From: a virus
Virus record (IMG/VR): IMGVR_UViG_3300013947_000003
Location: 1-64,000 of that record
Direction: 5' to 3' (one strand)
Length of the DNA stretch: 64,000 nt
How positions within the stretch are numbered: position 1 is the first letter of the stretch; each line of letters opens with the position of its first letter. The translations under genes and the position numbers were made by a program. Of the stretch, positions 3,915-38,055 are shown one piece after another. The notes beneath the pieces were generated by a model that saw only the letters and a program-made list of their open reading frames with translations, had not been told where the DNA came from and searched no databases.

Positions 3915-3935
3915 TAATATATAAAACAATAATAA

Positions 3936-3970
3936 AGGCGAGGGTTTTCACTCTCGCCTTTATTTTTATT
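3936..3970. terminator. bidirectional rho-independent terminator between convergent genes
   Basis: Stem AGGCGAG / CTCGCCT (3936-3959) has T-runs on both strands. It lies between the TAA at 3912-3914 (+) and the TAA at 3966-3968 (-). Confidence 0.7.
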
Positions 3971-6900
3971 CACATTCTAACATCTATTCCTATGATTGAA
4001 TACTTAACTAATCAAAATTAAATTTTCCGTCTTTTGCTCCAAATTTTTTAGCCAATTCTAATTTTCTTTGAGCATCTGTATTCCCCATTTCAGCATCGAA
4101 TTCTAATGCTGCATAACCTCGTAAGGCATCGGTTGCCGCATCATAAGCATTTTCATGAGTGTCTTCTATTTCACCAAGACCCCCTATTGTTCTTTTGCGT
4201 CTTCTAACTTTTGTAATTTTTTCTTTAGACTCTTTTTGTTTGTCTTCTCCCCCTTCTCTTGTATTTGTAGGCCCTTCAGGTCCTTCCGGACTCTATGGAG
4301 GTGTTGGGGACTCATTGTCGTCTCTTTTAACAAGTGCTTTTTCCTCTTCTAAAAGATCATTAAACTATATAGAGACACTTTTTTCTGCTACTAATACTTC
4401 TCCGGCATCTTTGAATCTAGTTCCTTTATACTCTGTGTATGGAGAAGATTCATTTGCTCTATATAAAAGTGTGCCATTTTCTGTAGCTGCATAGCTTCCC
4501 TATTTAGCATAATTATAATCCGAGAATACGTGGAATATTTTAAGACCATTTCTAGCAAAGTTTGCCTATATACCTTTTGATTCTAAAAACTACTAAGCAA
4601 GCATTTTGTATATAGACACCTGCTACCCCCATCTATTTTTATGCTAATCTATGCCAGGGCTATGATGAGTTTTAAAGTCAAATATTACAATATCTCCTTC
4701 GGCATTATATGCTATTAGATCCAATGTTCCTGCAACAGGTATAGTACCAATTTGTTTTCCATCCTAATATACTGGAAGTACTCCGTTTACAGTAAAACCT
4801 CTAGATTCAAAATGATACCCCTATCTAATAAGATTATCTCTAAAGTTTATTGCTTTATCATATAATTGCTTCCATTCAAATTCTTGAGCAATTGATAACT
4901 AGGCAAAAAGTTCTTGAAGTTCCTAAGTAGATTTTCCATCATATTCTCCATCAAAAAGATTTCTTAAGAATGTATCTACAGCATTACCTACGTGTTCACT
5001 AGGAAGCGCCCAGGGATTATTTTCATCATACCTTTTAGGGTTCCCATCTTTATCTCTTTCTGACAGTCTATCAGCTGCAAGTATAGAGGTTACTCTAGCA
5101 TGTGGATCTTTGCCTTCTCTAGTATAAAATTTTTCATCCTCAGTAAGTTGCCATTGTTTAGACTCTTCTTTTAAAATATTAAAAGCTTTCTAAGCTTCTC
5201 TTTGCGCTGCTTGTTGCTATAATAATTGCTACTAAATATTTTTTCCTTCTAAAGAAACTCCTGTGTCAGCATCTACCAGCCCATTGTTAGTTACCACTGC
5301 ATCTCCTTTTGTAGTATTAGATTCGGCATTATCTGTATTTGTTATTTCAGTTCTAGTTGTGTCTATTATAGGGGCGTTATTTGTTTGCTAAGGGGCAGAT
5401 AGTTGTATAACCGTAACATTAGTTTCAACTTTATTTGAATTTCCTCCTAATAATCCGTCATCATAAACAGTACTTAAATAAGTATGTGCAGCCTTAACAG
5501 CTTCTGCAGATGCTTCAATGTCCCCCATAAATGGAGATAATATTTTATCATCTATCTGCCAATTTACGTCTTTAATTAAAGAACCCCCATTATAGAAGAA
5601 GTTGGCTATTGTCTTTGCTACTTCCTGTGGAGTAAAGGGCTGGTCTGTAACAGTTGCTATTTGTTTATGTTCATTAGTAGCATTAGTTTTTAAAAATATA
5701 TTAACTTGAGGTCCATTTTCTGTAACTTCAACCCCTAATATAAAAGAATAGTCTGTAGGAGAGAAATAAACACCATTGGCATTAACAAATGCTTTTGTAA
5801 ACTATTCTGTAAGTTCTTCTAGTTTTTTAATACGAGATTCTTCATCCATACTTGCAAGCTCATTAGCATTGACAGTTTTAAAGAAAGCATTGAGTCTCTT
5901 TCCTATAAATGTAGCTCTACTATTAAATTCCTATCCTACTTCTCCACCATAAAACTATACATAAGCCTCCGGATTATTAAGTACATCTTCCACAACTTCT
6001 AATAATGTACGTCCTGTATATTTACTTCTAGCTTCATCTATTGCAGTAAAATCGTGTAGTCCTTCATTCTCATTACTACCTTCTATTCTTCTAAAAGAAC
6101 GAGCACGTTGTTTTTTTAACTCTTCTTCAGTTTCTTTTCCAGTACGAGCCTCTCTTATATATTCAGAAATAAACTTATTTCTTGCAGCTTTATATGCCTG
6201 TGTTTGCATCAGCTCATATTTGGTCTTACCTTTATATTCAGGGTGCTACTGTAGTATTTCATTTATAGATCTATCTGAAGATGGGGTATAACCTTCTCCT
6301 AAAGCTATAACTGTTCTAGTCTATGATACTTTTTTGATATCACTTGTTATTGGAGTATTATCTTCATCTTGTATTAATTCGTCTGTTTCTTTAATATTTT
6401 GTCTGATATAAAAAGATCTTCCGGAACCATAAGCATTTCTTGCCTATACTTTGGTATTTCTAGTAGAACTTAAAGTAGAATTAAAGGAACTAGGCATTAT
6501 TGCAATAGGCTAAAAGTTTTTAGGACCGTCTTTTGTTTCAAGTACTACTTTACCATTTTTATCCTCAACAACTGCAACCAATGGGGCATCTAATTCCTAA
6601 ATATGCTCCTCTCGTCTTTCTGTTATAGCGCTGGGAGAGTAATAATATACTGTTTTACCCTGTATAGTTGCAGCATGGTCCTATAAATATTTTTCAACTT
6701 CATTGTCTTCCCAATACCTTACTAATGATTCAGAAGCATTCCCTGAACTAATGTATTCTTTCATAGATAAACCTACCATTGTAGAAGAATTGGCCAATCT
6801 AGATAATTCCTACAAATTATCTTTTGTATTAAACCATCTTTTGTTGTTTATATTAACTTGAGAATCTTCTATGTCTAACTATCTATCTATTGCTGCACTT

Positions 6901-9900
6901 CTTAGGTATTTCTACAACTTTTCCCCAACTTTCTATGATAAAGTCTTCTTTGTCTCCTATTTAGTGTTTGCTGCTTTTATAGACTCTTGGGTTTTCTTAT
7001 AATTATCATAGTCGTTTAATATACCTAAAAGAACTTCACCATTTTTGGCTTCATTAGTATTTTCATCATTATTAGAAATGAGGGAGTTTGCCTACTTTCT
7101 TAATGCATTTAAAAAGTCAGCTTCAGACTCATATTCAAACTGCATTCCTCTAAATATATCAAAAAGAACTTGCCTCTGCTCATCGCTAACTTTGCCATTT
7201 GAGTTTATCTTATTATATATAAAAGTCTATGCCTATGAAAGCATACTAAATTCATCTTCAGATGTAGGTTCATTTTTTTTCTTCTTTTCCTCTTCCTTCT
7301 TCTTCTAATTTTCTTTTCTTTTCTTCCTATTCTCTCTTTGTTTTTGCTTTTTTGACTTAGATTCCTAAACAACTTCTTCTGACTCTTTAGCTGTTATCGG
7401 CTTTGCAACTTCTTTTGATGCTTCTGCTTCTTTAATACGTCTTTCAATTTCCTCCTAATAGGCATCCATAACATTATTATAGATGGACATAATTTCTTCT
7501 ACAGAATCAAAACTCATTCTTTCATTTTCATCTTTGGTTTCCTAATCTATTTCATCTATAAATTCTTGGATTAAAAATTTTCCTGTCTCTTTATTAACTC
7601 CTTGCAAAGCATCTATTACAGCATCTCTGTCTGTAAGTGATACTCCCTTACTTCTTAAAAGCTGTAATGCTGAAAATAAAAGTTCTTGTTGCCTATCATC
7701 AATAGAACGTAATTTTGGGTCATTAACAATGAGTCTCATCATAGTCAACTAATCATCTCTGCCTTCAGAATATCTCTCATAGAACTCAGGACTCATATCA
7801 CGTAAAACACGTTGTAAAGTTCTATAATCAACATCATTACTGTCTTCTGCCTCTTCAACTGCAGCAACCCAATCATCATAGTTCTTTATCCTGGCTATAG
7901 ACTCATATCTAAGCTGCCTATATCTTGCTCGTGCAATACGTGCTTCTCTAGTTCCCAATTCGCTAACTATAGTAGGATTTTTAAGAGCCAATGCATACTC
8001 TACCATAGATCTACTTATATTGTCTAGTAATACAGCAGAATCCTTAACAATATCATCAAACTCAGGATCTAAAAGTCTGCCCTAAGCTTTAACATTTTCT
8101 ATAATTCTTGCCTATTCTTCAGAATAATTGGTTAAATCTGAATTTAATATTAGTGCTCTTTGTCTTGCAGAAAGGTTCATTATCTCCTACTCATTAAGAA
8201 CAATTTCGTCACTATTAGCAGACTTTCTGTTTTTAAGTGTATTTACTCGTTTATTTATATTAGAGATCTCATCTTCAGTTTTTCTTATATCTTCTTTTAT
8301 TTTTGAAGTGTCTTTTCTGTCTGCTTTTTTCTTAGAATTTTCCTGTTTTAATTCTTCTCTAAGAGATTTTAGTTTTTCTTGTTTTTTTTCTAATTCTCTT
8401 CCCTACTATGCAACCTTCGCATCTACTATAGACTTGCTGCCATATTTAACAAGGTCATCAATTTGTTCTTGAGTACTTACTCCGTCGTGTCTGCTATTTT
8501 GAAATTCTTCAGACTTAGCAATCTAACTAATTCTATCCTCTAATTGCTTATGACGTTGTTTAAAATTTTCATTGGAAAGTTTCCCATAGATTAATCCTGC
8601 TGCCTAATCTGGTGTAAGCACGCCCAATTGTTTTTCTAAAGACTCTTTTATATCATCAATTTGGTCTAGCATTTTTGAGACATAAACAGCACGATCTTTA
8701 GCTAATTTTAGCTTATCTTCTCTAGACATTGACGGGTCTGCTATAGACTATACTAATGCCTCTTGCTATTCTTCTGTTAGATTATCTATATCAGTCATAT
8801 TTTTAAGCAGCTACATAGTACTGTTATAATATGCAGTACCTTTTAACTATGAAATCATAAGTGCTGAATGAACAAGACCTCTAAATAATGCATCTCGTCT
8901 TTCCATACCTGCACTATAATCTTCTGCTATTTGTATGATTTCACCTGCAGAAAGTACTCCCTATATAGATTTAAACATTTCAAGGCGCTTTTCATCTTCA
9001 TTTATCCAATCCTCTATAGCCTTAGCCTGCGAAATTCTATCCCATGCTCTTTGCTAGACACTTTTATAGTGCATTACAGCATTACTTTGAAAAGGAATTG
9101 CTCTTGCAATAGTCTTTAAAATGCTTTCCTTTTTGGCAGTACCATCATCATTTTTAATAGTGTTTCCATCTTTATCTGTGGCGTATTTTCTATTCCAAAA
9201 CTTTATAGTAGTTTCATATTTACCATCTTTTCCTCTAATAAGATTTCCATCTTTATCAGTTTTATAAGACATATATTTACCCCTAAGCCCGGTGAAGGGA
9301 GAGGGCATTAAAGAGCCTAATGCCCCATAGAATGCCTATTTCCAAGATTCAGGATCTACCATAGCATTAGTTGCAGCCTCACGTGCTGCTGCCCATTCTA
9401 TACCAAAAGTTTCTCCAATCATAGGAGTACTACCATTATAACGTTCTTTCATAAATTGGTGAATATTAGCCATTGCCCCCCCTTCTGCTGCAGCATCTGT
9501 AACAGACTGGAAATATTCTTCAGCACCCTCAGGTATAGCAACTCCTAAAGTGCCATTAATAAAACGTGTAAACGGCTAATACCACAAAGTTCGAGGTTTT
9601 ACAGTGGCTTTTCCTGTTCCTTCAACTTCTGTAGCTACAAAACGTTCTTTTGTAGATATAAATTTACCAAGTTTTGGGCTAACTTTATCTATTCTCCTAG
9701 CAATTGCATTTCTGGCATTACGTAGTGCTTCCTAAGTCCGCTTCATTGTCCACATTTCTGCAGTCATTGTGTGGAACAAACCATTAATCACAGAATTCAT
9801 CATAAGGTTCTATGTGCCTGCAGTTGCAGCAGCATCTTCAATTTGTGCTTTAACATCCTTAAACATATTATAATATGTAGGATCATCCCCACCATTAACA

Positions 9901-12014
9901 CCTGCTGCAATTATATTAAGGTAGTACTATGCAAGTTTTTCAGGATCATTTCCTACTGCTGCTTTAGCCTGTTTTTGTAGCCCTATAATATCAAATTGTT
10001 GCTACTATAAATAGCCTAACATATTATCTGTCAATTCAGAGTAACCGTTTCTAAGAACATTTTTTTCGGTTTGTAGACCTTCTATAATACCCTCATTGGT
10101 ACCAATAATTCCTGGGATTGTTATATTTACTAAATTATCGGCTTTATTAATTCTATTCTGTATTATGGCGAATCTTTTTTCAGCCTCTTCTAGCCCTTCT
10201 ATTTTACTTGCAAGGTCGGTCATCTACTATATTTTATTGGGGACTTTAAATGCCGTAGAAACTCCTTTGAACAAATATTTAGTTGCCAACCCTAATGCTC
10301 TACCTCCCAATGCAGAACCCCAAGTAAAACCACTTTGACCCCAAGCCTCAGATAGTGTGTGTGCAAAAAAGTTACTTATACTATAATCAGTAACATCGTC
10401 AGGATTAGCAAAAGTGTTTATTCCATATTTTTCCCAATCTTCATCAGAGGTAAACAACCCCTTTTCCATTTTTTCACTAGCCCACTCAGACAATGGATTA
10501 TGCATAACTCTATAAGAATATCCATCACCCCAGTTAAAAGGATTAAGAGCAGAACCTATCATACCAATAGTAGAAGCAGCAGTTGTTATAGTTGAATCAA
10601 TTGCTTGTACAGTTGCATTACCCCAGGCTTCATACCAAGGCATGTCTCTATATGCAGCAGCCTCTACTTCTTCAGCTATTCTTTTCTTTCCTGCCTCTTC
10701 TGCTTCTGCTTCTGAAAGTCCATGATTTAAAGCTGCTTCATAAGCTTCCGTATAAGCATATAACACTTTATCATAGTCTTCATTGGTCATCCAATCTTTA
10801 GCCTATTTAGGATCTTGTGTACCGTCATAAATTGCACTATCTACAAGTTTTTTATCCCTTGTTTTTTTGTACCAACCTGTCTACTATGCTATTGACTTTA
10901 TATATTGTAATTTCTCTTGTTTTTCCTCAATATTTTGATTATAATATGCTTCCCATTTACTTTCACTTTGTTTTTTATACTAGTTAGCTTCTTTTTCAGA
11001 TAACACTTGCGCCGTAGTATTATAATCAGAATACTGTTTTACATACTTTTCTCGTTCTTTAGGAGTTAGATCTTTAAATTTTTTATGTTTAGCATTTTTT
11101 ATTTTACTTTCATAATCTAAATTTTTAGAAGCTGCAGAGCTACTAACATTATAAGGAATAGGCTCAGTAGTAGCAAATGCAGATACTCTCAATGCTTCTG
11201 CAACATCTTCTGCATGTTTCTACTCTAAACTCTATAATAAGCTTTTAGGATCAACTCTGCCATTAACTTTATTAACTGTGTATATATTTGGAATATGGGG
11301 TGTGAAAATAAAATTACCATCATCACCTATATATACATCATCATCAGGATTTACAGACACAGCTTTTGGCTAATATACTGATATTTTTCTATCAGCAATT
11401 GCCTAATTAATAGCCATGGCATCCTATATATATTTCTCTAATTCCTATTTCCTCCTATACAACTTTGTATACCTTTTTAATACTTCGGGTTTATCTGCAT
11501 TTTCAAGAATAAATACGTTAGGAAGTCCTACAGCACCTAACTACTAGGTTATTTCCTAATATTCTTGAACTTCTTTATTATAGCTAATACCCAGTTTATT
11601 ATTTAAGGTCTTATCATAATTGGGGTTTAACACACTAGCACTGCCATTAATTTTACCAAGACTTTGTTGGAAATTATTTTCTACAGCAGGCTTTATATTG
11701 GTTGCATTATTAGAGGGTATTGTTGTATTATTATTTACAACAGAAGATTGTGTTGGCTATGTTGTCTATGTTGAGGCTGCAGCAATTTGAGTAGAATTGG
11801 TATTCTGTCCATTATATAAAGCAACCTTTTCATCAAATGAATTGGTTTTATCAAAAGCTCCTAATGCACTTTTTCCGTATTTCTATCTATACTAATATCT
11901 TAAAAATGCATTCTTTTTTTGTTCTTCTGACATACTTTTAATGTCATTATAATAAGTTTTAGCCCACTTATCATACTCTGACATACTTATATTTGTATTA
12001 TAAAAATTATTCAT
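3966..12014 (-). CDS. giant virion protein (~2682 aa with TAG=sense); possibly an ejected cargo or RNAP-type protein as in crAss-like phages, function not verified
   Basis: All minus-strand track ORFs from 5955 to 11192 share one frame (end coordinate mod 3 = 2). The junctions I checked are TAG only. The ATG is at 12012-12014 and the first TAA at 3966-3968 abuts the terminator. I did not check all 2.7k codons. Confidence 0.65.
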
Positions 12015-12028
12015 AATTAATAATTATT

Positions 12029-13207
12029 TTAAGACACTCCTTCAAGGTCCTTCCCTTTTTGTGTTCTGCCACTATTATCTTTATTACCATTGTTGTTAGT
12101 CTCTTTTGTCTGAGGCATTAAAAGGGGGTATAGTACACCTTTAGCAGTATCGAAATAATAAGACTGCATAATATTATTTTTAGGACCGTACATTCTCATA
12201 TAGTACTTATATTCGTCATCTCCGTTAGCGGTAACTCTTCCAGTAGGCTTTTTAAAATAAATGTTATTCATATCAGTACCATTTCTTGCTGCTATATTAG
12301 ATACAAATGTATTAGGAGAGGGAGTTACTGTACTTAAATCTAAAAGCCAAGACTATGGTTGATTTTGTTCAAACTATGCTCTACTTAATGCTAACTGAGC
12401 AGACTGCATACTACGTGAGAATGTGGGATCTTCAGAATAAGAAATACTTTGTGCATATGCAGTGTTATCAAGGAATCCTGAAATTATATTCTATAAAGCT
12501 TTGTTTTGATCTTCTTTATTTAACTGACTAACTCCAAATTCTTCAAGTATCCTGTCTTTAGCTTTAACAAACTCTGAATTTTTATTTGCAGTATTAATTA
12601 ACTACTGTAACTCTTCAGAAGTATAACCCCTTCTTTGCATATTTTCAAAGAAATACCCTTTAAGATCTCCAGTTGCTTTCTACATAGTATGTATAAAATG
12701 TCTGCCAGATTCAGAGTTGGCAAATCCTAAAGCTGCTGTATATAGATCTTCTCCTTTAACAGTATTATAAGTTGAACTGCTTTTTGCCATATCAGAAAGT
12801 GACATTGTTCCATAATCCTTATCAAAATATACTCCTCTTTTCCCCTAAGCTCTTAATAGTCTTTGCTCCTTAGCTAACTCTTCTCTTTTCCGTGCTAGTT
12901 CTTCTAAAGGCTTAAAAGTTCCTGCATAATCTAATCTTGCTTGATTTATATCCCGAACAACTCTTCTAGTCTAACCATTAGCCATAGCATCTGCATAACT
13001 TAAAAGTCTATTTTTATAGTCCTACAACTAAGCATATTGTACAGGGTCTCTATACTAATCAATTAACGTTCCTAATTTAGAGGAAGCCTCAAGAAGTTTT
13101 TCCTGTTTGTCTAAATTCTTTTCATATGATTCTATGTATTTACCATAAGGTTTATATAAATCATCAAATGAAAGAGGTTTAAAATTATTGTCTATTACTA
13201 AATACAT
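12029..13207 (-). CDS. hypothetical virion protein (392 aa, about 13 in-frame TAG)
   Basis: Translated fully by eye from ATG 13205-13207 to TAA 12029-12031. Reading TAG as Q gives sensible contexts (LIDQYRDP, ELQQLINT, SRAQFEQNQPQSW). Confidence 0.75.
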
Positions 13208-13209
13208 AA

Positions 13210-16068
13210 TTACTGTTTCTATTTATTATTACCTTTAGTGGTATTATATCCCCAATATCTAAGAATATCATCAGATATAGGAGCGCCAGATTCTATTAAA
13301 CCTGCCATCATATTTCTATTCATATTTTCATATCCAAGATCTCCAATAAATTTAAGAAGTCCTGATATATTAGCTGCCTTTGCAGCATCTGCAGTGTCTT
13401 TAATTTTTTGTTTTGCCTCTGCTGCAGCTAAAAGGTTCTTAGTGTATTCCCACTTATTAGAATTTAAAGTTGCTTGATTTGCTTTATCTGCTTCTAACTA
13501 TCCTTGTGCATTGAACTAATCTGTAGCAGTTGCTTGTTTAACACTTTCTATTCTATTCTGTAGATTTTCTTTATTAACCTAAGCAATGGCATTTCCTATA
13601 CTGCCAATTGTGTTATAATTATTTGAAAGTATTCCAGCTAAAGCTGTAGCTCTATTTGCGCCACTATTATTAACAATCGCCCTCTATGCTCCTGCAGACT
13701 ATGCTTTTATTTGATTGGCTAAAGACTAAATATCCAGAGGTGTGTAGGGAAGGTAGTTGTACGTTTTATTAAACCCAACAGGCTAGTAGGTCCTACTGTT
13801 TTTTAAAGAGGCATCTATAGCAGCAAAATTACTATAATCAGGTTTATTAGTAATACCTAATAAATCTGTTAATGTTCCTGCCGCTAAACCCAAACCGGAA
13901 GCATATCTTAGCCACTCAGGACGTCTTTTTATTGGAGCAGCTTCTAGAAAGGCTCTTTCCTATGTTGCGGGTTTCTATACAAAATAATGATCTGTGTATG
14001 TAGTATCTCCTTCTACAACCCCTGTTTTTGTTTTAGATGGATCATATAACCAACCGATATTATTTGGATCTTTAGACCATTTACTATAATTAGGGATTAA
14101 AGTAGTCTAAGGCATACCGTGTTCATCGAGCATATAAGTATAATACCTATCTCCAAATTTAGGTTCTGTTTTTCCGGGATTTAGTTTTTTATACCAATAT
14201 CCTAAAGCATCCATACCAAATTTATGTGCATCAGAAAAAGCAGAAGAATTACCTGTGGGGCCATCATACATCAATCCCATATTTCTGTCTTTTCCCAACA
14301 ACTCATCCATAGTAGGAGCTATTTTATTCCTTAGAAAATAGTTCTAAGCATTCTTAGGATTACTCCACCAGCCTTTTGCATATTGCAGCCCTTCATCAGA
14401 TCTGAGCCATTCTATAAATCTAGGATCTTTATATATATTAGCATATTGTCTAGTTTGTGGATTATACAAATGCTCTCCCTCAAACTGGAAATTAGACCAT
14501 TTACCATATATATCTGGATTATATCTGGCTGTTGGTCCTCCAGGATATTTAGAATACTGTGTTTTAACAAAATCTTGAGAGTTTAGTGCCTATATAACAT
14601 CATTTATTATATCCTTCCCTACCCCTATATACTAAGGCTATTCTCCAAGCCCATCAAATAAATTTAAAGAGCCACCATGCGCAAACTCTGTATATGCAGG
14701 AAACCCTTCCTACTACTATTGTTGTAACATCTATTGTTGTTCTTCCTATTCTAACTGCTAATTATAAGCCTACTATAGTTGTTGTTGCTAAGCAGCCATT
14801 AAAACTTCAGATTGTTGTTGGGGGGTCATATTATTATATGCCTGTCTTATTTTTTTCTGTTCAGCCTAAATTCTTTTTTCCTCAGTATCCTAAATTAACA
14901 TATTAAGGAAAAACTCTCTTCCTGCTATACTAATAGGATCATTGGGTCTCTCTTCAGATTCTTTAGTTACTTTCATGGCTACTTCAGATATAGGCAATGG
15001 TTTTTTGCTTTTTATGCCATAATCCTTAAGTCTATTTACAGACAGTTTTAATCTATGAGGAAATACATAATCAGGTTGCCCATCGGTTAATTTAATGACT
15101 TCATCTTGTTCTACTAGGTTAGGAGTGCCATCCTAAGCTATTCCCATTAATACCCCTCTGTTAGGATTCTATTCATGTGTTCCTCCTTCTCCAATATAAT
15201 TAATCCCAGTACTGAAATTAGCTCCATTAGTCATTAAATCGCCTCCAAAAGCGTGTTCCCAGCCTGCAGCATTTCTAGCAAAGTTTGCTTTTTTTATCAT
15301 AGCACTACTATAATTTTCTTTGTTATTTAAAATATGGTTTGCAAATTCCTATACGCCCATATTATGTTTTTTGGCAGCGGCAGTAAAAGTACCTTTTCTT
15401 GAAGGCTTTATTCTAATATTACCACCATTGGCAAAAGATGCCTGTAACTGCTAATTTTTATTCATTACTGCATTATGTGCAGCATTGTTCTAAACATTTG
15501 TCTACCAAGCAAAAGCACTATCCTAAGCCTCTCTTAAAGCATTTGCTTTTTTAGCAACTTTATTAGAAAACCATCCATCAGTTCCTATATACTTATTACT
15601 AAACTCCATAGCTTTATTTGATGTAGCCGCCTCACCTGCTAATGAATCTAAACTCATATTACTGTCCAATTGATATGCTTTTGCTTCATCTATACCTGCT
15701 TGAACATTAGCTATGTTCTACTCATTAAATTTAGCGCCAAACATTCTATTAGTAAGACCTCCCACAACATTTAGTGCTGCGCTTGCCACTGCTCCCCAAG
15801 GTCCCGGTATTGCGCTTGCAATACTACTAAGCCCCTATAAAGCATTTCCAACACCTGAAGACAGCCCTCCAGATATAGCACTACCAACTGCAGCACTCGC
15901 AGGTCCTGCAACAGACTGTGCTATACTTCCAAAGTTTAAGCCTGTATTGGCTTTGGCAGTAGGGGCTTCAATATTAGGAGATAGGAGGCCTTTTTGCATT
16001 GCTTGCTACTTTAAAACCTCCGGGCTTGTACCCCCAAAATTATATGATATTTTCGATAAATCAAACAT
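13210..16068 (-). CDS. large tail/cargo-associated protein (952 aa) with a poly-Q tract
   Basis: Runs from ATG 16066-16068 to TAA 13210-13212, two nt before the next ATG. It has dozens of in-frame TAG codons and a poly-Q tract at 14710-14799 built from TAG, CAA and CAG. Confidence 0.75.
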
Positions 16069-16090
16069 GTTGTCATAATTATTTATTGTA

Positions 16091-16098
16091 CAAAGATA
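16091..16098 (-). promoter_or_regulatory. Bacteroidota-type -7 promoter box TAnnTTTG (TATCTTTG)
   Basis: The reverse complement of caaagata lies 23 nt upstream of ATG 16068 and just downstream of a terminator hairpin. Confidence 0.5.
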
Positions 16099-16129
16099 TA
16101 TAAAGTTCTTTATATCAACAACTAAATAA

Positions 16130-16168
16130 CTTAAAAAATAATAGGGATATAAGTGTTACCTATATCCC
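16130..16168 (-). terminator. rho-independent terminator
   Basis: On the minus strand, stem GGGATATA / TATATCCC is followed by TATTATTTTTT. It is nested within an outer inverted repeat AAATAACTTAA / TTAAGTTATTT. Confidence 0.7.
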
Positions 16169-16175
16169 CATTAAG

Positions 16176-19100
16176 TTATTTAGTATAATGTACTGTTATA
16201 CTATTTATTTTTGCAGTTTTTGTATTATTTAATTTTAAAGAAATTTCTGTCCAAGGATTTCTAATTCTCTGTCTTCCAACTCTTGGCAACTATGTTCTCC
16301 AAAGTCTAAATTTCTTTTTAAAGTTATCTCCTTTGGCTTCTTGATAGTCATTAGTTACAGTAACTTCTTTTATAGGACAAAGGTTTTCATCGTCATAAAA
16401 TTCTTTGTTGTTATAATATACACCACCATCTATATCTAAGGTGTCAAATATTTTAACAATATCTGATTTATCAGTACTTATAAATGATATACTTGAAGTA
16501 TCGTCTCCTAAGTATGTATCACCATTAAACAATTCATATACATCAGAATCTGCAGGATTCTCTTCTCCACGAAAACCAACAAGCTTGCCCCCTAAACATT
16601 CTGTTCCCAAAATGCCATTAAGTGAATATTTAGAGATATAAGTTCCTAATAACGCTGAATAGTTTAATGCACTTCTAGTATCATTAGGAAGATAATACAC
16701 ATCATTATATCTGTAATCATAAGCTAATCTTATCCCTGATACTGTAGGTTTATATTTAGGTGTCCATATAGCACTTAAATTATTATTTTTATGCCATTGA
16801 AACATTTTGTTAGGCGTTGATAAATCCTATACTTGCTACCCATTAAACCCATATAATCCTGAATTATTCCCATCAATAAAGTAAACCATTTCCTTACCTT
16901 TACAAATACCAAATGGGTTTTGCATGCCTATAGTATTATTAATAATTCTAATACCGCTTACTTTATCACTATTTGCAATTTCTATAGGAACACCATCTGA
17001 AGACTATATCTATACTCTGTCATTATATAAAATCTAATTTAAAGCATTATTCTATAAACAGAATATATTATCTCCTAGTGAAAATAAATCTGTTATTGGC
17101 CCATTAGCACCGTCAACATTTAATGTATTAGCTAATGATATGTTAGTCCAAACATCAGTATCTGCACCACTAGATTTAGTTAAACTCCAAGTTATTTGGT
17201 TGTGAAAACTATTCTAAGAATAAAATTCATCAGGCAGTTTATTATAATTAAAGAAATTGTCTTTCTACGAGTATACAGGATTTATTTTGTTAAAATTAGT
17301 ATTATTAGTAGTCCAATTAGTTAACATACCAATTCTATTATCATACCTGCCATCAAAATTAATCCAAGATTCACAAAGAAAAGATCCTATTTCCACAACC
17401 TAATTTTCATCATCTAAATTAGCAGCATAGGTCTTTAAACAATCATATCTACCAAAGAAACAATCTCCATACTCTATAGAGAGTGCCTATGGTTCAGTAT
17501 AACTTCTTTGTATTCTAACAGCTTTTCCTGCAGGAACCCACATATTATTATTTAATGCTTGTTCTGAGACGCCTCCAAATAAATTTTTATTATAATCGCT
17601 TTCTTCATCATCTGCTCCCTTCCTTACTAATTCTGCTAATAATAAATAAGGAGCAGGTTTTTTAAAATCAGTATTACTTAAACTATGTTTAAATGGTTCG
17701 GGAAGTTCTTCTTCTGCCTCAACCTCTTTCCATAGAAGGTCTCTTTTAAATTTAAAAGTTTCGGGTTTCTGATTAGTATCTTGAGTAGGGGTAGTTATAG
17801 TGCCATTACTGTCAACAGGTGCTTCAGACAGTTTACATCCTACAATTTTACTGTTTGCCCAAACTTCTCCTTCTTCATCTTCTTCTGGCTTAAATGGAAA
17901 TGTTGTCAACTCTTTCTATACAAATCCATACAATTTTCCATTTGCTTCTATATGATTTAACTTTGCATAAACGTAGTTGTTAGCAACGTCTCTCTCTATG
18001 GCTCCTAAAGATTCTGCATTAACGGTTATTTTAATATTTATACCAAAGTAATCAGGTTCATTTTCAAATATAGCTATAATTGCTTGTTTAATATCATCAT
18101 TTGATGGGGTTTCTGGGCTAATATTTAAACTTAAATCACTTGCAGGGAAACATAAAGTACAATCGGGTTGTATTTTAAATAATGGTGGAGCATTATTTAC
18201 CTAATCGGGAATATATCCTGTTTTAGTTTCTATATTATTGTTTTCCTATAATACACCATTATTCAATCTACAAATTGCCCAAGTATTATAAGCAGTATTA
18301 GACTCTTTAGGTTTTTGGGAAATAACCCATCCGGTTATATTAGACATATAAGTGGAATCTATATATACACCTATATACTAAATTTCCATAGTTTCATATC
18401 CGGAATCTCCAGTATAGTCCTTTTCAGGATCTATTTGATTACCACTGTATTTATAATACCAATCAGGAAGAGTATACTCCTTATCACCACTAAAGTCTTC
18501 ATAGAACTTAACTCTAGGTAGTAGGGTAGCATAGGCTTCTTTACTTTTATTCTCTTTATCATCTGTTACTTCTACACAATCATTTGGCAAACTTATTACT
18601 AAATGAGGAGAAGATAGATATTTCATTCTTACTGGAGAACTGCTATAAAGAGGACCTGAAAATCCAGAATCAGTATCAGTATTACTTCCTATGTAGTACT
18701 CTTCTGATGCTGTTAATAAAGTGTCTACATTGCCCTAATACTATACAGATTGCTATAGATACGGCAAGTCTAAATAGTTGATCGTTTGTTCTCCATAGTT
18801 CATTACCAACTATATATCTTTAGGATTATATGTTAATATATTAGGAGAAATTTCAGCAGAATTAAATACTTTAATATTAGATATTTGTTTCTTTAACAGA
18901 ATAGAAGATTGTGCATCTCCTTTATCATGATTACTGTCATTATTTAAAGAACCAGTTCTCTACCAAGTACTTACAAGCCAGCTTTCATTATACTTAGATG
19001 TTATTACTTTGTCATCTTTTTCTATTACAGCATAATCTCGCCACCAACTCCCTCCAACAGCACCTCCGTTAATATCAAATACACTATTTGGATTATTTAT

Positions 19101-20912
19101 ATAGCCTACAGGTTTAAATACAAAACCTCCTGAAGGGGATTTAGCGGGAGATTTAGTTTCTATATTCACATTACCATATATAGAGTTTAAAGGAACTGCA
19201 CCTATAATCTAAAGTTCATAGCCTGTATAATCTATAGACCATAAGTCTTCATTATAACTTAAATCAGGAGAATTAAAAGTAACTATATTCTCATCTATAT
19301 AAAACTGGGAATTGTATTTATTATCTGCAAACTTAGGTATTTCGTTTGTAGGTGTTGTGTTCCCAATTTCCTCTTTGTTTAAAACATCAAAATTGTTAAA
19401 CTAAATATAATCACCTCTTTTTTCACCATATAGTGCACTGCCTTCATATTTTTTATTATACACAGGTCTGAAAAACCAAGAAGATTGTGCAAATGGAGCA
19501 TTTGTCATCCTGCCATAATAATTAAAAACTGTGGGGCATAAAACTCCTTGTGCTAAAGATCTTTTATCTGTGAATTTAGGATATACTACAACAGCTCTTA
19601 GTTTTCTAATTCCCAAATCATATAACTCTTTTTGAAAATTTGCAATGCCTAACTATATTTCTGCAGTTCCTGTAGTAATCATAAGCTGCCCCTAAGTATA
19701 GTCTAAACTAACAACCGGGTAGACCTAATTAATAATTATATCCCCCATATATACAGGAACTGACCAAGTACCGTCTTTATACTACCCCTGTATTCCTATT
19801 CTATATTTCTAATTATATTTAAATATTCCAGAATACTCTTTATTTAGGTTCTATATTTTATAATAATACTAATTAACACTAAATTTTTGCTTTTCCCCCT
19901 ATCTTCTATCCCCCTCCTAAATTTCTTGTTTATCTTTAAATAATTGCATAAACTTTAGATCTTTCGAAGGTAAAGTGAGATTGCCTAAAAATAAAGTATT
20001 ATCTTTCTATGTTATAGCTCCTGCATAAAACTCCTTTCCTCCTATATATAATAGTAATGTAGGATCAATAGTTTCCTGATAATCTCCATTATCTGTAACA
20101 GTTGCAGAAGATTCTGTTATTTTTAGATCTTTAACAATATGTACAGAAGGAGTTTGATTTAAAGAAGTTCTGTGTATAGAATATATTCTTACAAAATCAA
20201 AATTTGTATCTATATTTTCAATGGTTATTTTAAATGAATTAGAATATCTTTTAGAAGGATCACCTGCTTTGTCTATATCTGAAATATAATATAATGGTGA
20301 TACTATAGCAAGATTAGACTCTTGGCCGTATAAATTATAATACGTTATTCCATATTGTATTACCCCGGGACTGAATACCCCGCCACCATAAGTCTTTTCT
20401 ATATTTAGGGTTTCATTTAACTATAGTTCAGGAACAAAATCAAATATACTAGTATTAGTTATTTTAGAATCAGGAGTTTCAATATATTTTGAGATGTTTA
20501 TAACTCTAGGAGGCCTAGTTGGCTATACCCAATATACTTTTTGTGTCTTTTCATTTTCATAAACAAACAGAGTTTTTAATCCGACATCTCCATCTAATAT
20601 AGGAGAGGCAATTTGGGCAATTATTTCTTCATTGTATTTTTCATTAATATATTCAACTTTGTAAATATATGTTGCAGTATCTTGAGTAAATACTATAGCC
20701 ATATTATCAGTTATTTTACAATGTCCAATATAATTACCTGTCATACTAGAACTAACTAAATTAGCCCCCTTTTCAGTAGTTATAGAAAACTATGTTGGAT
20801 TGTCTCTATCTGTGATTCTAATATTTAAAGCATCTCTAAGAGCTGCAGGTTCTTGATATATTTCTGCAGAGTCTTGTTGTAAGCTCTAAAATATATGTTT
20901 ATCTACTTCCAT
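16176..20912 (-). CDS. giant tail protein (about 1578 aa), tail fibre / tail-associated
   Basis: Six track ORFs (16290-16805 through 20523-20744) share one frame. The start is AAGGAGG-n5-ATG at 20910-20912. The TAG at 16290 reads through to TAA 16176-16178, immediately before the terminator hairpin. Confidence 0.7.
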
Positions 20913-21607
20913 TAATGCCTCCTTATTTTTTCTTGTATACTATTAGTCCTAAATCCTCTATTATGCTCAGTAACTCTGGAAATTAATGTATTCCAACTAT
21001 TAGTAAACGCCTACATTTGATCTACTGTAGGCATTATCAAACTTGATTGTGCTTGACCTACGGCCCAAGCATATTCCTACTGAACATTTTGATAAACATT
21101 AGCATTTATCTTCTGTAAATCAAACAGTATAGTAAATGTTTGTTTTTTTATATATAATTCCAATGCCCTAATAAATGCTGCATTATCAGGAATTAAAGGA
21201 TATCCTTCTTCATCTACTGCAATGGCTCTATATGCTATTTCTATAGTACCTTCTTTTATAGAAGTAAAAATGCAATTGCCTTGCAGTTTATAGCAAAAAC
21301 CTGAATCTTGTTTGTAGGATGACATGTGAAAATTGTCAGTACTATATACAAACGTCTATTCTAGCTGTCTGTCACAATTCTACACTAAGGTTCTTACCTA
21401 TATCATTTCATAAAAATCACAAGGCAATAGTGCCCTATAATCTTTTATCTCTAGCTATTCAGTTTTTTCAATAAACATATTAGGCATTCCTACTATGCGT
21501 ATAAACTGCTGTGCATAGTTAATCGCTCTTTCTAAACTTACATCCTAAAGTAAGGGATGATTTAATATGTTATCTAAAACCTCTTTTATTGATATATAAT
21601 TAACCAT
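20912..21607 (-). CDS. virion structural protein (231 aa)
   Basis: Translated by eye from ATG 21605-21607 to TAA 20912-20914, which overlaps the next ATG (TAATG). It has about 9 in-frame TAG codons. Confidence 0.7.
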
Positions 21608-22127
21608 ATAACCAAGTATCTATTTTATTATCTTTTAATAAAGCTGCAAGTTGTCTTTTAAATGTTCTATTAGGATAGAAGAAAAATACCTATTTATTTT
21701 TATAATTTGCTTTAATTTTACTATATATGATTTTAAATATATACTATGCAGTATTATAAATGAGAATCCTTTTATCAAATGCTTCCTTATCTTGATTCCA
21801 ATATTCTAAAGTTTCTCCCCAATTTATTGCTTTTTTAATTTTAAGCTTTCCGTCTTTTATCACCACTTTAGTTTTGTTTTTAACAAGTTCTATTCTGCCC
21901 ATCTTATGTGGCAAAACAATACACTGCTTAGTAAAAAATTGTTGAATCAGCTCTTTATTAATATTTCTGATTATAAAGTAAAACTGGTGCTAAGTAATTG
22001 GACCTCCTATATCAAGCCATTTGTTTCTTCTAATCCATTTATAAACATCATATACACCAAAAGAATTTCTTACTTTGTGAATCTTTGGACCATGTGCCTT
22101 AACTATCTAAAGTTTAAAATCATCCAT
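21600..22127 (-). CDS. hypothetical protein (175 aa)
   Basis: The ATG at 22125-22127 forms an ATGGATGA overlap with the upstream TGA. The TAA at 21600-21602 overlaps the next ATG. The plus-strand ORF 21906-22175 is its antisense shadow. Confidence 0.6.
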
Positions 22128-22866
22128 TACCACGCGACTAACTCTAATTTCCGTCAATTTGTTCTTGTAAATTAGATTTAACATTTTGACGTATATAAGA
22201 CATTAAATCTGAAAGGGCGTCTTTATCATCATTTTCAGAATCCTCAGGTCTATAAGAGGCTCCCAACAACAACTACACAACTGCATTTATAGCATTGCCA
22301 ACTAAAGCTTCTTCTAAAGGAAATTCCTTATCTAAAAAGTCTTGGCATTTATTATCCTCAGTGTTACAGCTTTCTGCAACTTTATCAGGCTCTTCAAATA
22401 TACCTGTCATCTTTAAATTTTTTAAATACAGATGCTGAGGATTACTTCCTTTTAAATATAAATAGTTGTCAGGCCCTATTGATGCATATATTATATTTTT
22501 AAGCCATTTATTATGACCAACATACTTCATTCTTTCTCTAGAAACTAAAGTAATGGAAGTATTATAAAAGTCTTCAGAGTATAAATTAAATGTTCCTATA
22601 TTTAACAGCGTAGGAATAACATTCTTACTTCTGAGATAGGAAGTATTCCTACAAATACCTCCATCTGTTTTTATTTCTAATGGAATACACAAAGTCTAAT
22701 AATTAGACTATGATACCTCCCTTTTAATAGTTGAGTATTTCTGTTCTAGTATGGCGGCTCTTACTTTAGAAAGTAAAAACTTTACGTGGTCTTCTGTAAA
22801 GTAAGAATCTTCTGAAGATAGCTTAACCTGATCTAGACACATATATATTATTTCTCTATAAGTCAT
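22120..22866 (-). CDS. head-tail/neck-type structural protein (248 aa)
   Basis: The start is ATG 22864-22866 (MTYREIIYMCLDQVKLSSED...). Track ORF 22273-22692 continues through three TAG codons to TGA 22120-22122, which overlaps the next start. Confidence 0.65.
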
Positions 22867-22888
22867 ATCATTTATAATTAAGGACTTG

Positions 22889-22896
22889 CAAATATA
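22889..22896 (-). promoter_or_regulatory. -7 box TATATTTG
   Basis: Lies 23 nt upstream of ATG 22866, inside the loop of the AAGGACTTG / CAAGTCCTT hairpin (22880-22925). Confidence 0.4.
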
Positions 22897-22944
22897 ATTA
22901 TATTAATTAATATTCACAAGTCCTTTATTAATATTATCAGATTA

Positions 22945-23277
22945 TTATAATGGACGTCTTATTTGATCATCCATAACTCGTAACTTATTGTCTTCCTAAG
23001 AAATCCTACAATTAGTATTATAAAATAGTATTGGTTTACTAACTAAATTTTCAACAATTATTGGATACGGAATTAAACAATCTTTACCATATAAACAATA
23101 TACTGCTTTTTGTAAATATTGATAATCTTCTTCTGTAAGATAGTAATACAAAGGTTCTTCAAAGAATTCCTATATTATACTATATGCCAACAGTCTGTTT
23201 ACAGATGCTGTAGATAAATAACCGGTTCTTTCAAGTATTTTAAAATACTACTCTAAAGATTTATATAAATCATCCAT
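22945..23277 (-). CDS. hypothetical protein (110 aa)
   Basis: Translated by eye. The ATG at 23275-23277 overlaps the upstream TGA (ATGGATGA). The stop is TAA 22945-22947. It has 3 in-frame TAG codons. Confidence 0.6.
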
Positions 23278-23833
23278 TACATCCACAGGGTTTTGAAGTT
23301 GTTATAATCTATTTATTGTTTCCATAAAACTGCTCCCAAATATTAATAGCTTCTTGATAGTGTCCTGTATCTATTGAAGTTTGTAGCATTTTATATCGTA
23401 AAAAAGCATTTATTAAATTAGTAGGAACTGTGCAAGTATTCGAAAGTTCTTTAATATACTACATCATAATGTCATATATACTTTTTACATCATATACAAC
23501 CCCCATAATATATTCAGAATCACATCCACAGGGAGTATCGGGACTTGGGGAACCACTGGTTTCTATATAAACAAATAAAAGTTTTTCATTTAATGAAGAT
23601 AGTTTTATATCCATTAAATCTTTTGCAGATAAACATAATTCTATCTCTTTAGTATTTTCTACTTCTATTTTATGAAATCCGGATTCCTAAGAAGGCCAAC
23701 TAACATAATAATCCGTCCCTATAAGTATTTTTGAAATATACACATCTTTATAATAAGAACTATTATCAACAAATGCTGATATAATTAATTTCCCTCTTTC
23801 CTAGTCTATTCTTAATTCTTTAAAATGTACCAT
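23270..23833 (-). CDS. hypothetical protein (187 aa)
   Basis: Translated by eye from ATG 23831-23833, directly after a terminator, to TGA 23270-23272. It has 4 in-frame TAG codons. Confidence 0.6.
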
Positions 23834-23871
23834 AATAAAAAGAAAGGGGAGGGGATAATAATCCCTTCCCC
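23834..23871 (-). terminator. rho-independent terminator
   Basis: A GGGGAAGGGA / TCCCCTCCCC hairpin is followed by TTTCTTTTTATT on the minus strand, directly after the TGA at 23893. Confidence 0.7.
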
Positions 23872-23892
23872 TTATATTTAAGTTGTTAATAA

Positions 23893-24834: not shown

Positions 24835-24858
24835 AATAATATTTGTGTTAAATTAAAC

Positions 24859-26486: not shown

Positions 26487-26512
26487 AATTTAACTATGCT
26501 CCTTTGAGCTGT

Positions 26513-27496: not shown

Positions 27497-27529
27497 ACTT
27501 CTCCAAATTTAAAGGTTTATATTATTTAT

Positions 27530-27554
27530 AGGCTAGGGGATATACCCCTAACCT
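27530..27554 (-). terminator. hairpin downstream of the MCP stop (terminator-like)
   Basis: A 10-bp stem AGGTTAGGGG / CCCCTAGCCT lies 20 nt after the TAA at 27574. No clean T-run follows. Confidence 0.4.
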
Positions 27555-27573
27555 ATAATAATATAATAGTTTA

Positions 27574-32668: not shown

Positions 32669-32690
32669 AAATTATATTATATTAAAAATT

Positions 32691-33827: not shown

Positions 33828-33857
33828 TTATTCTCCTTTTATCTAGTTTATTCAATA

Positions 33858-33953: not shown

Positions 33954-33958
33954 ATACC

Positions 33959-38051: not shown

Positions 38052-38055
38052 CGGA

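What the first reader, a model, noticed from the sequence alone, without database searches (positions are those of the whole stretch)
14710..14799. TAG is interleaved with CAA/CAG inside poly-glutamine tracts, which identifies the inserted residue
The minus-strand reading of 14799-14710 is MAA-Q-QQQ-L-QQ-AYN-QQ-LE-Q-EE-QQQ-ML-QQQQQ. Nine of the 17 Gln positions are TAG, including three consecutive TAGs at 14710-14718, and the other eight are CAA or CAG. The portal C-terminus (41772-41855) shows the same mixture (MLQRAQQQQQQQQELAQQQIQQEAQQKQ). A low-complexity homopolymer in which TAG substitutes freely for Gln codons is internal evidence that TAG means Gln. It argues against another amino acid or a programmed stop.
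Basis: seen in the sequence. Interest (0 to 1): 0.65.

Follow-up and report, generated by a model that had tools for sequence, protein, structure and literature searches.

The report
Amber codon read as glutamine

Summary
On the minus strand, 14799-14710 reads MAA*QQQL**AYN*QLE*EEQQ*MLQQ***, with 9 TAG, 7 CAA and 1 CAG in 30 codons. The portal tract is also as described. The interpretation that TAG means Gln is supported by tests that do not assume it. Against five standard-code crAss genomes, 851 TAG-aligned cells are 24% Gln, a 6.7-fold enrichment; nothing else exceeds 1.6-fold. Blinded CAA and CAG give 32-35% Gln. Where at least four references agree, TAG faces Gln in 17 of 27 columns. In three recoded relatives, TAG exchanges with CAA/CAG and almost never with other codons. 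In one of them the three consecutive TAGs are CAG-CAA-CAA.

The tract lies inside a 952-aa cargo protein C1 (PhicrAss001 gp45 homologue), not at a start. It is a clade-specific Gln/Glu-rich helix after the portal-binding domain.

A tRNA with anticodon CUA lies at 49095-49168. Such tRNAs co-occur with recoded terminases in relatives: 4 of 4 recoded loci against 0 of 34 standard-code loci. Recoding is largely confined to the late block.

This is genetic code 15, already described for crAss-like phages and confirmed by mass spectrometry. The finding is real, correctly read and ordinary.

The parts
14710..14799 (-). Gln/Glu-rich tract, residues 424-453 of cargo protein C1: 9 TAG, 7 CAA and 1 CAG in 30 codons, ending in TAG TAG TAG. 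It is predicted to be part of one alpha-helix, residues 416-453.
   Evidence: codons and shuffles; TAG/CAA/CAG exchange with relatives L008 and L009; helix H416-453, pLDDT about 65-76 within a low-confidence model.
13210..16068 (-). Gene for cargo protein C1, the PhicrAss001 gp45 homologue. It is 952 codons long with 36 in-frame TAG and ends at TAA.
   Evidence: Pfam PF25725 crAss_CARG1 matches residues 272-408, E = 2e-37. Synteny with frurule gene49 and crAss001 gp45.
41772..41855 (-). Gln-rich tract of the portal protein, residues 684-711: 4 TAG and 13 CAA/CAG. The tract is conserved as a Gln/Ala/Glu-rich stretch in standard-code relatives.
41499..43904 (-). Portal gene, 801 codons with 18 in-frame TAG. 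Seven of the TAG positions face an invariant Gln in all four standard-code references.
43984..46221 (-). Large terminase gene, 745 codons with 21 in-frame TAG. 12-15 of the TAG positions are Gln in standard-code relatives at 73-77% identity.
49095..49168 (-). Amber-suppressor tRNA with anticodon CUA. It is a class I canonical cloverleaf with U1.G72 and A73, and lies about 2.9 kb upstream of the terminase on the late-gene strand.
   Evidence: ARAGORN. Rfam tRNA match, 52.4 bits. Sequence. Orthologous CUA tRNAs occur in 4 recoded relatives and in none of 34 standard-code loci.
279..49472 (.). TAG-recoded late block holding virion RNA polymerase subunits, cargo proteins, muzzle, ring proteins, capsid, lysis genes, portal and terminase. 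It contains 320 in-frame TAG in 37 ORFs of at least 100 codons. TAG makes up 44% of Gln-type codons.
51899..63999 (+). Early and replication block that is nearly free of in-frame TAG and readable in the standard code. It includes a DnaB-like helicase and an SNF2/DEAD helicase.

Best explanation
The window comes from a crAss-like phage (Crassvirales, near the Steigviridae genera Pamirivirus and Mahlunavirus). Its late genes are written in genetic code 15, in which TAG is a sense codon for glutamine, synonymous with CAA and CAG.

The phage carries a tRNA with anticodon CUA. By inference, the host glutaminyl-tRNA synthetase charges it with Gln. It then reads UAG in competition with release factor 1.

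Early and replication genes are nearly TAG-free, so the unmodified host machinery can translate them. Late genes carry up to 81 TAG each, so they yield full-length protein only once the suppressor is active.

The flagged stretch is a Gln/Glu-rich helical insertion in cargo protein C1. TAG is drawn there at the same share as everywhere else among Gln codons, which is why TAG and CAA/CAG look interleaved.

Shown here: TAG is sense, TAG means Gln, a CUA tRNA is present and co-occurs with recoding, and recoding is largely limited to the late block. Inferred: which synthetase charges the tRNA, when the tRNA is expressed, and how release factor 1 is outcompeted.
For: (1) TAG is sense. Under the standard code the longest ORF is 396 aa and ORFs of at least 100 aa cover 49% of the window. 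With TAG open, ORFs reach 2,685 aa. There are 337 in-frame TAG in the called genes.

(2) TAG means Gln, shown without circularity. Window proteins with TAG masked as X were compared with five genomes shown to use the standard code. Of 851 TAG cells, 205 are Gln (24.1% against a 3.6% background, 6.7-fold). The next residue is Glu at 1.29-fold. Log-likelihood is -2325 for Gln and -2709 for the runner-up. Where at least 4 references agree, TAG faces Gln in 17 of 27 columns, against 31 of 42 for ordinary Gln codons. In the blinded control, CAA gives 32% Gln and CAG 35% Gln, with the same Glu and Lys runners-up. Ten of ten sense codons were identified correctly. Capsid exons give 26 Gln of 30 cells and the portal 38 of 71. 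The terminase gives 57-71% Gln at 73-77% identity.

(3) TAG behaves as a synonymous codon. Against recoded relatives L008 and L009, window TAG faces TAG 179, CAA 77 and CAG 30 times out of 381. CAG faces TAG in 40% of cases and CAA in 27%. The figures for other codons are AAG 1.8%, GAG 2.2%, TAT 0.3%, and TTG, TCG, TGG and TAC 0%. Against L148 (94-96% aa identity), 47 of 48 TAG sites are TAG, CAA or CAG. 38% have switched to CAA/CAG, comparable with the 28% synonymous-codon turnover at other residues.

(4) In the tract itself there are 17 aligned TAG cells: 6 TAG, 9 CAA/CAG, 1 GAG and 1 ATG. The triple TAG is CAG-CAA-CAA in L008.

(5) tRNA(CUA) evidence is. It co-occurs with TAG-bearing terminases in 4 of 4 loci that have enough flank, and in 0 of 34 standard-code loci (Fisher p = 1.4e-5). 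The suppressor family's best single match among 94 related-phage tRNAs is tRNA-Gln(UUG), at up to 73% identity.

(6) Literature: TAG read as Gln in crAss-like phages was predicted (PMC7886860; bioRxiv 10.1101/2021.08.26.457843) and confirmed by LC-MS/MS peptides (PMC9523058).
Against: No peptide data exist for this phage. The tRNA's amino-acid identity cannot be settled from sequence. Its acceptor stem is as close to phage tRNA-Lys(UUU) as to tRNA-Gln(UUG), at 12 of 15 positions each. By mean identity a single tRNA-Arg(CCU) ranks first. It has A73 and U1.G72 rather than the G73 and U1-A72 of E. coli tRNA-Gln (the E. coli features are from my own knowledge).

TAG columns match Gln somewhat less often than blinded CAA/CAG do (25% against 32-35%). 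Gln-type codons including TAG make up 5.0% of late codons, against 3.6% Gln in the aligned orthologues. So many TAGs sit at variable sites. No release-factor or synthetase gene was seen among the few early ORFs scanned, so how release factor 1 is overcome remains open.
Confidence: 0.95

Rival explanations
1. TAG is a sense codon for another amino acid: Glu, Lys, Tyr, Trp, Leu or Ser (the one-base neighbours of TAG), or pyrrolysine as ARAGORN's label suggests.
For: ARAGORN labels the tRNA 'Pyl', but only because of the CUA anticodon. The tRNA acceptor stem resembles phage tRNA-Lys(UUU) as much as tRNA-Gln. Glu is the second most common residue opposite TAG. One TAG in the tract faces GAG in L008.
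Against: Enrichment opposite TAG is 6.7-fold for Gln against 1.29 for Glu, 0.92 for Lys, 0.42 for Tyr, 0.51 for Leu and 0.96 for Ser, and Trp does not appear among the residues aligned to TAG. The log-likelihood gap to the runner-up is 384 units. Blinded Glu, Lys, Tyr, Leu, Trp and Ser codons give quite different profiles. Exchange of TAG with AAG, GAG, TTG, TCG, TGG, TAT or TAC is 2.2% or less, against 27-40% with CAA/CAG. The tRNA has a short variable arm, which excludes bacterial Leu, Ser and Tyr types. It has an ordinary D loop containing GG and a TTCGA T loop, unlike tRNA-Pyl (tRNA-Pyl features from my own knowledge).
Confidence: 0.02
2. The TAGs are genuine stops. Either the late genes are fragmented pseudogenes of a dead phage, or they are expressed only through rare programmed read-through.
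For: Under the standard code the region does break into short ORFs. Host release factor 1 would recognise every UAG.
Against: Reading frames of up to 2,682 codons contain 81 TAG but no TAA or TGA. The same frames are kept, with TAG positions turning over synonymously, in many independent contigs. TAG positions are conserved Gln in orthologues. With 81 TAGs, 95% read-through per codon would yield only 1.6% full-length product, so rare read-through cannot make these virion proteins.
Confidence: 0.01
3. TAG means Gln, but the decoding tRNA is host-encoded or a second unrecognised phage tRNA. On this view the CUA tRNA at 49095-49168 is not the main decoder.
For: Published surveys find recoded phages without a detectable suppressor (PMC7886860; bioRxiv 10.1101/2021.08.26.457843). 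The window covers only about two thirds of a genome of roughly 95 kb. The tRNA's identity is not provable from sequence.
Against: A well-formed CUA tRNA is present (52 bits to the Rfam tRNA model). Orthologues sit at the same place upstream of the terminase in every recoded relative with enough flank. They are absent from 34 standard-code relatives that carry up to 19 other tRNAs.
Confidence: 0.05
4. The dense TAG run in the C1 tract is a selected translational gate that delays C1 synthesis, rather than neutral synonymous codon choice.
For: The tract has three consecutive TAGs and 9 TAG in 30 codons, the densest TAG window in the gene. Published work proposes that recoding times late and lysis gene expression (bioRxiv 10.1101/2021.08.26.457843).
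Against: The TAG share among Gln-type codons in the tract (9 of 17) equals that in the rest of the gene (27 of 54). The TAG positions are not conserved: relatives have CAA/CAG at 9 of 17 aligned cells, and the triple TAG is CAG-CAA-CAA in L008. The clustering is explained by Gln clustering.
Confidence: 0.05

Closest known systems
Genetic code 15 (amber read as Gln) in crAss-like phages: Yutin et al. 2021 (PMC7886860), Borges et al. (bioRxiv 10.1101/2021.08.26.457843), Peters et al. 2022 (PMC9523058)
   Same: In-frame TAG is confined mainly to late structural and lysis genes. A phage-encoded CUA suppressor tRNA is present. Early and replication genes use the standard code. The lineage belongs to the beta/Steigviridae group, with relatives of about 94-96 kb. 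TAG is read as Gln.
   Different: Nothing of substance. This is another genome of that kind. Its closest deposited phage genomes (cr116_1, cr128_1, Kolpuevirus 'frurule') use the standard code. This illustrates the known code switching over short evolutionary distances.
E. coli supE (glnV) amber suppressor: tRNA-Gln with anticodon CUA (my own knowledge)
   Same: A tRNA with anticodon CUA inserts Gln at UAG. C34 and U35 of the Gln anticodon are retained. The first acceptor pair is weak, with U at position 1.
   Different: supE is a mutant host tRNA giving partial suppression. Here a phage gene must support near-complete decoding of hundreds of TAGs. The discriminator is A73 and the first pair is U1.G72. 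Descent from tRNA-Gln is suggested but not proven.
TGA-to-Trp recoded phages (code 4: Lak, Jade and Agate phages, and some crAss-like zeta and delta phages)
   Same: Stop-codon recoding is limited to late genes and uses a phage suppressor tRNA. One relative found here (L151) has 9 in-frame TGA in its terminase.
   Different: A different stop codon and a different amino acid. In this window TGA and TAA remain stops.
Ciliate, diplomonad and dasycladacean nuclear code 6 (TAA/TAG read as Gln) (my own knowledge)
   Same: TAG is decoded as Gln by tRNAs derived from tRNA-Gln. TAG is one transition away from CAG.
   Different: Code 6 is a genome-wide cellular reassignment with an altered eukaryotic release factor. 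It is not a stage-specific viral switch inside a standard-code host.

Membership tests
TAG-to-Gln (code 15) recoded crAss-like phage | Conserved phage genes are interrupted by in-frame TAG only, and become full-length when TAG is read as sense. | tested here: met
   longest ORF 396 aa under the standard code against 2,685 aa with TAG open.
TAG-to-Gln (code 15) recoded crAss-like phage | TAG positions correspond to Gln in standard-code orthologues. | tested here: met
   (24% Gln, 6.7-fold enrichment; 17 of 27 conserved columns), blinded control (terminase 57-71% Gln).
TAG-to-Gln (code 15) recoded crAss-like phage | A suppressor tRNA with anticodon CUA is encoded by the phage. This is common in the family but not universal. 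| tested here: met
   It co-occurs with recoding in relatives.
TAG-to-Gln (code 15) recoded crAss-like phage | Recoding is concentrated in late structural and lysis genes, while early and replication genes are compatible with the standard code. | tested here: met
   0.3-5 TAG per 100 codons across 279-49000, and almost none across 51.9-64 kb.
TAG-to-Gln (code 15) recoded crAss-like phage | Crassvirales hallmark genes and gene order. | tested here: met
   Portal and terminase are 72-74% identical in nucleotide sequence to cr116_1, cr128_1 and Kolpuevirus. The window is collinear with the frurule and crAss001 late blocks. crAss-specific Pfam families (ring, muzzle, cargo 1 and 2, auxiliary capsid) are recorded for relatives, and crAss_CARG1 was matched here.
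TAG-to-Gln (code 15) recoded crAss-like phage | Peptides containing Gln at TAG positions. | not testable with these tools
   This needs proteomics. It has been done for two other crAss-like phages (PMC9523058).
Pyrrolysine decoding (ARAGORN's label for the tRNA) | The special tRNA-Pyl architecture: a small D loop without GG, a 3-nt variable loop, a 6-bp anticodon stem and one base between the acceptor and D stems. | tested here: not met
   two bases (TA) follow the acceptor stem, the D loop has about 9 nt and contains GG, the variable loop has 4 nt and the T loop is TTCGACT. The match to the general tRNA model is 52 bits. tRNA-Pyl features are from my own knowledge.
Suppressor derived from tRNA-Gln (supE-like) | A tRNA body carrying Gln identity elements, or clear descent from a tRNA-Gln. 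| tested here: inconclusive
   U1, G2-C71 and a D arm of the type GTGTAATGGTAGCAC are shared between the suppressor family and tRNA-Gln(UUG) of standard-code relatives. The best single identity is 73%. However, mean identity ranks a tRNA-Arg(CCU) first, and the acceptor stem is equally close to tRNA-Lys(UUU).

The most novel reading that the evidence does not exclude
Single late genes carry 36-81 TAG codons and runs of three. Useful yields of full-length protein therefore need more than about 99% read-through per codon. That is hard to reach by tRNA competition alone. It would imply that this phage lineage also neutralises host release factor 1 through an unidentified product encoded among its uncharacterised early ORFs. 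Nothing here tests this. No release-factor or synthetase gene was seen in the few early ORFs scanned.
Probability: 0.25. Interest if true: 0.6.

Novelty: already known. Interest (0 to 1): 0.12.

Why it matters
For annotation, the window must be translated with code 15 rather than code 11. Otherwise the portal, terminase, capsid, cargo proteins and virion RNA polymerase fall apart into fragments. For biology it adds one more example of a documented code switch between early and late phage genes, and nothing new in kind. On its own it is weak evidence and needs the alignment test.

Tried and rejected
(1) Homologues from the large protein database. The close ones, P0001 to P0023, are themselves code-15 translations: searches report 'translates_to_query: no'. 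Using them to read off Gln at TAG would be circular. I used DNA of standard-code genomes and codon-level alignments instead.

(2) Standard-code orthologues for the C1 tract itself. The tract is a clade-specific insertion, so its TAG columns align poorly or fall in gaps.

(3) Genome-wide adjacency of TAG to CAA/CAG. It is significant overall (9.4% against 5.2%, p = 0.002) but not after removing C1 and the portal (p = 0.12).

(4) tRNA identity. A blastn search of the tRNA against phage records gave only partial hits to a tRNA-Trp and to unannotated records of unrelated phages. Two pattern scans of viral contigs found either nothing or generic anticodon-stem matches. Nearest-neighbour comparisons lean towards tRNA-Gln but do not exclude Lys or Arg bodies.

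(5) Nucleotide context of TAG. There is only a weak shift at the base after TAG, with fewer A and more G than after CAA/CAG (p = 0.05). No clear anti-termination signature emerged.

(6) TAG as a stop in genes upstream of the tRNA. ORF 50511-51275 continues past its TAG in the homologue of L148, where Tyr is aligned, so that TAG is internal. Other early ORFs that end at TAG were left unresolved.

(7) AlphaFold model of C1. Overall confidence is low (mean pLDDT 56.5, pTM 0.25). I used it only to say that the tract is predicted to be helical.
Full report
**1. The observation**

On the minus strand, 14799-14710 translates under the bacterial code as MAA*QQQL**AYN*QLE*EEQQ*MLQQ***. The codons are 9 TAG, 7 CAA and 1 CAG out of 30, ending in TAG TAG TAG at 14718-14710. 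The second example, 41855-41772, reads ML*RA*QQ*QQQQELAQQQIQQEAQQK*.

Two details need correcting. The 'MAA' is not an N-terminus: the frame is open upstream, and the tract is residues 424-453 of a 952-codon ORF (16068-13210) with 36 TAG and no TAA or TGA. The portal tract is residues 684-711 of 801.

Nine TAG in 30 codons was reached in only 4 of 20,000 within-gene codon shuffles. The TAG:CAA/CAG ratio in the tract (9:8) is the same as in the rest of the gene (27:27).

**2. What the window is**

G+C content is 32%. Under the standard code the longest ORF is 396 aa. With TAG open, ORFs reach 2,685 aa.

The portal and terminase region is 72-74% identical in nucleotide sequence to the crAss-like phages cr116_1 (Pamirivirus), cr128_1 (Mahlunavirus) and Kolpuevirus 'frurule'. 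The window is collinear with their late blocks.

In-frame TAGs (337 in all) are concentrated in the late block 279-49,000. They are nearly absent from the plus-strand early and replication block from 51.9 kb onward. That block includes a DnaB-like helicase and an SNF2/DEAD helicase.

**3. What the flagged protein is**

ORF 13210-16068 is the homologue of PhicrAss001 gp45, cargo protein C1. Pfam crAss_CARG1 matches residues 272-408 with E = 2e-37. The gene sits between the muzzle gene and the cargo 2 and virion RNA polymerase genes.

In PhicrAss001, gp45 residues 425-552 form a domain bound to the portal inside the capsid, and the protein is thought to be ejected first (PMC10172136). Window residues 214-414 align with gp45 residues 372-558. 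The Gln tract begins just after that domain. It is an insertion of about 37 residues before a conserved (F/Y)AxGG motif, and it is absent from the five standard-code relatives. It is conserved in 22 close relatives.

An AlphaFold model has low overall confidence (mean pLDDT 56.5). It predicts residues 416-453 as one helix with pLDDT of about 65-76, followed by a disordered stretch.

**4. Which residue TAG encodes**

Database proteins of the close relatives could not be used. They are code-15 translations of TAG-containing DNA, so reading Gln from them would be circular. Three independent tests were run instead.

(a) Standard-code orthologues. Window proteins with TAG masked as X were aligned by tblastn to five crAss genomes verified to use the standard code.
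- Of 851 TAG cells, 205 are Gln: 24.1% against a 3.6% background, a 6.7-fold enrichment.
- No other residue exceeds 1.3-fold. Gaps are 1.6-fold.
- Log-likelihood is -2325 for Gln and -2709 for the next candidate, Glu.
- Where at least four references agree, TAG faces Gln in 17 of 27 columns. Ordinary Gln codons score 31 of 42.
- Seven portal TAGs face an invariant Gln. The capsid exons give 26 Gln out of 30 cells.
- In the portal's own Gln tract the standard-code phages carry real Gln at the TAG positions.
- In a blinded control, CAA gives 32% Gln and CAG 35% Gln with the same runners-up. Ten of ten masked sense codons were identified correctly.
- In standard-code terminases at 73-77% identity from IMG/VR, 12-15 of the 21 TAG positions are Gln. 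That is at least as good as the ordinary Gln codons.

(b) Recoded relatives at the codon level. Against L008 and L009, which share 56-94% amino-acid identity with the window depending on the gene, window TAG faces TAG 179, CAA 77 and CAG 30 times out of 381.
- Window CAG faces TAG in 40% of cases and CAA in 27%.
- The figures for other codons are AAG 1.8%, GAG 2.2%, TAT 0.3%, and TTG, TCG, TGG and TAC 0%.
- Against L148 (94-96% identity), 47 of 48 TAG sites are TAG, CAA or CAG. 38% have switched to CAA/CAG, similar to the 28% synonymous turnover at other residues.

(c) The tract itself. There are 17 aligned TAG cells: 6 TAG, 9 CAA/CAG, 1 GAG and 1 ATG. The triple TAG is CAG-CAA-CAA in L008.

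**5. The decoder**

A tRNA with anticodon CUA lies at 49095-49168 (-) and scores 52 bits against the Rfam tRNA model. ARAGORN's 'Pyl' label reflects the anticodon only, because the cloverleaf is ordinary. Its short variable arm excludes the Leu, Ser and Tyr types.

Forty-one relatives were retrieved through the terminase.
- Six have in-frame TAG in the terminase. All four of those with enough upstream DNA carry a related CUA tRNA.
- None of the 34 terminase loci without in-frame stops carries one, although some hold up to 19 tRNAs (Fisher p = 1.4e-5, without correction for shared ancestry).
- One relative, L151, has in-frame TGA instead.

The suppressor family's best single match is tRNA-Gln(UUG) of the standard-code relatives (73%; shared U1, G2-C71 and D arm). 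Similarity to Lys and Arg tRNAs is not much lower. The tRNA's identity is therefore inferred from the codon evidence, not shown directly.

**6. Mechanism and its open step**

The picture matches the published model. Early genes are read with the host code. The suppressor then allows late genes to be completed (PMC7886860; bioRxiv 10.1101/2021.08.26.457843). Gln at TAG has been confirmed by peptides in two crAss-like phages (PMC9523058).

With 81 TAG in the virion RNA polymerase gene, 95% read-through per codon would give 1.6% full-length product, and 99% would give 44%. How release factor 1 is outcompeted is not explained by anything seen here.

TAG columns are a little less conserved than CAA/CAG columns. 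Gln-type codons including TAG total 5.0% of late codons, against 3.6% Gln in the aligned orthologues. This suggests that many TAGs are newer Gln substitutions at variable sites.

**7. Verdict**

The tract alone is only suggestive, because adjacency statistics lose significance without the two example proteins. The alignment and codon-exchange tests are decisive. The phenomenon is already known for this phage group, including Steigviridae (PMC7886860; bioRxiv 10.64898/2026.08.21.746148), so novelty and interest are low.

Noticed in passing
window 27577-32668 (-): The major capsid protein gene is split into five pieces: 32668-32603, 31783-31463, 30639-30436, 29376-28738 and 27879-27577. These match residues 1-22, 19-125, 123-190, 191-406 and 407-507 of the frurule capsid protein. 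Each of the four gaps, 0.8-1.1 kb long, holds an ORF (31844-32488, 30747-31355, 29489-30265, 28022-28648). Three of these ORFs resemble GIY-type endonucleases of frurule. They are probably group I introns with homing endonucleases, as annotated in cr128_1 and cr116_1. Rfam found no intron model at the gathering threshold.
   Followed up: partly
window 30747-31355 (-): The intron-borne endonuclease-like ORF has the highest TAG density in the window, 10 TAG in 202 codons. The neighbouring intron ORF 31844-32488 has none.
   Followed up: no
window 59364-59431 (+): A fifth tRNA-like sequence was found by Rfam (44.9 bits) but not by ARAGORN at default settings. At a relaxed threshold it folds as tRNA-Thr(AGT). 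It has a short D loop without GG, a 4-bp anticodon stem and an atypical T loop (GTCATAT). It lies directly after tRNA-Met (59244-59318).
   Followed up: partly
window 56625-57083, 53123-53521, 60431-60820 (+); 50511-51275 (-): Several ORFs outside the late block end at TAG under the standard code. In 56625-57083 the TAG is followed two codons later by TAA. Whether TAG acts as a stop there is unresolved. In 50511-51275 the TAG at codon 202 is internal: the L148 homologue reads through with Tyr aligned.
   Followed up: partly
L151 (IMGVR_UViG_3300020045_000632), terminase match 772-3042: A relative with 46% terminase identity has 9 in-frame TGA and no TAG. This is a switch to the other recoded stop codon within the same terminase family.
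   Followed up: no
L148 5053-5124 compared with window 49095-49168: L148 has a terminase about 96% and a portal about 94% identical in protein sequence to the window's. Its CUA tRNA is nevertheless only about 69% identical to the window's. The acceptor and T stems are kept, but the D arm and anticodon stem differ. The tRNA is diverging much faster than the flanking genes, or it was exchanged.
   Followed up: partly
window 13210-14700 (-), C1 residues about 455-715: C1 carries an extra segment of about 260 residues that is absent from PhicrAss001 gp45 and frurule and only partly present in cr116_1 and IAS virus. Residues 520-700 are modelled with pLDDT of about 70-90 and include a beta-rich part (637-698). 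Its function is unknown.
   Followed up: no
whole late block 279-49000: Gln-type codons (CAA, CAG and TAG) make up 5.0% of late codons, against 3.6% Gln in the aligned standard-code orthologues. TAG columns match Gln less often than blinded CAA/CAG columns (25% against 32-35%). Recoding seems to have raised Gln content at variable sites.
   Followed up: partly
P0001-P0023 (protein database); L003, L008, L009: The large protein collection already stores these phages' proteins translated with TAG as Q. For example, P0001 equals the window's C1 with Q at all 36 TAG positions plus one A/T difference. Such entries cannot serve as independent evidence for the code.
   Followed up: yes
window 48333-48632 (-): The three TAGs at codons 7, 10 and 19 of this 99-codon ORF lie upstream of where most homologues begin to align (about residue 35-39). 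Four standard-code relatives align from residue 18, with Met at codon 19. The real start may be downstream, which would leave these TAGs untranslated.
   Followed up: no
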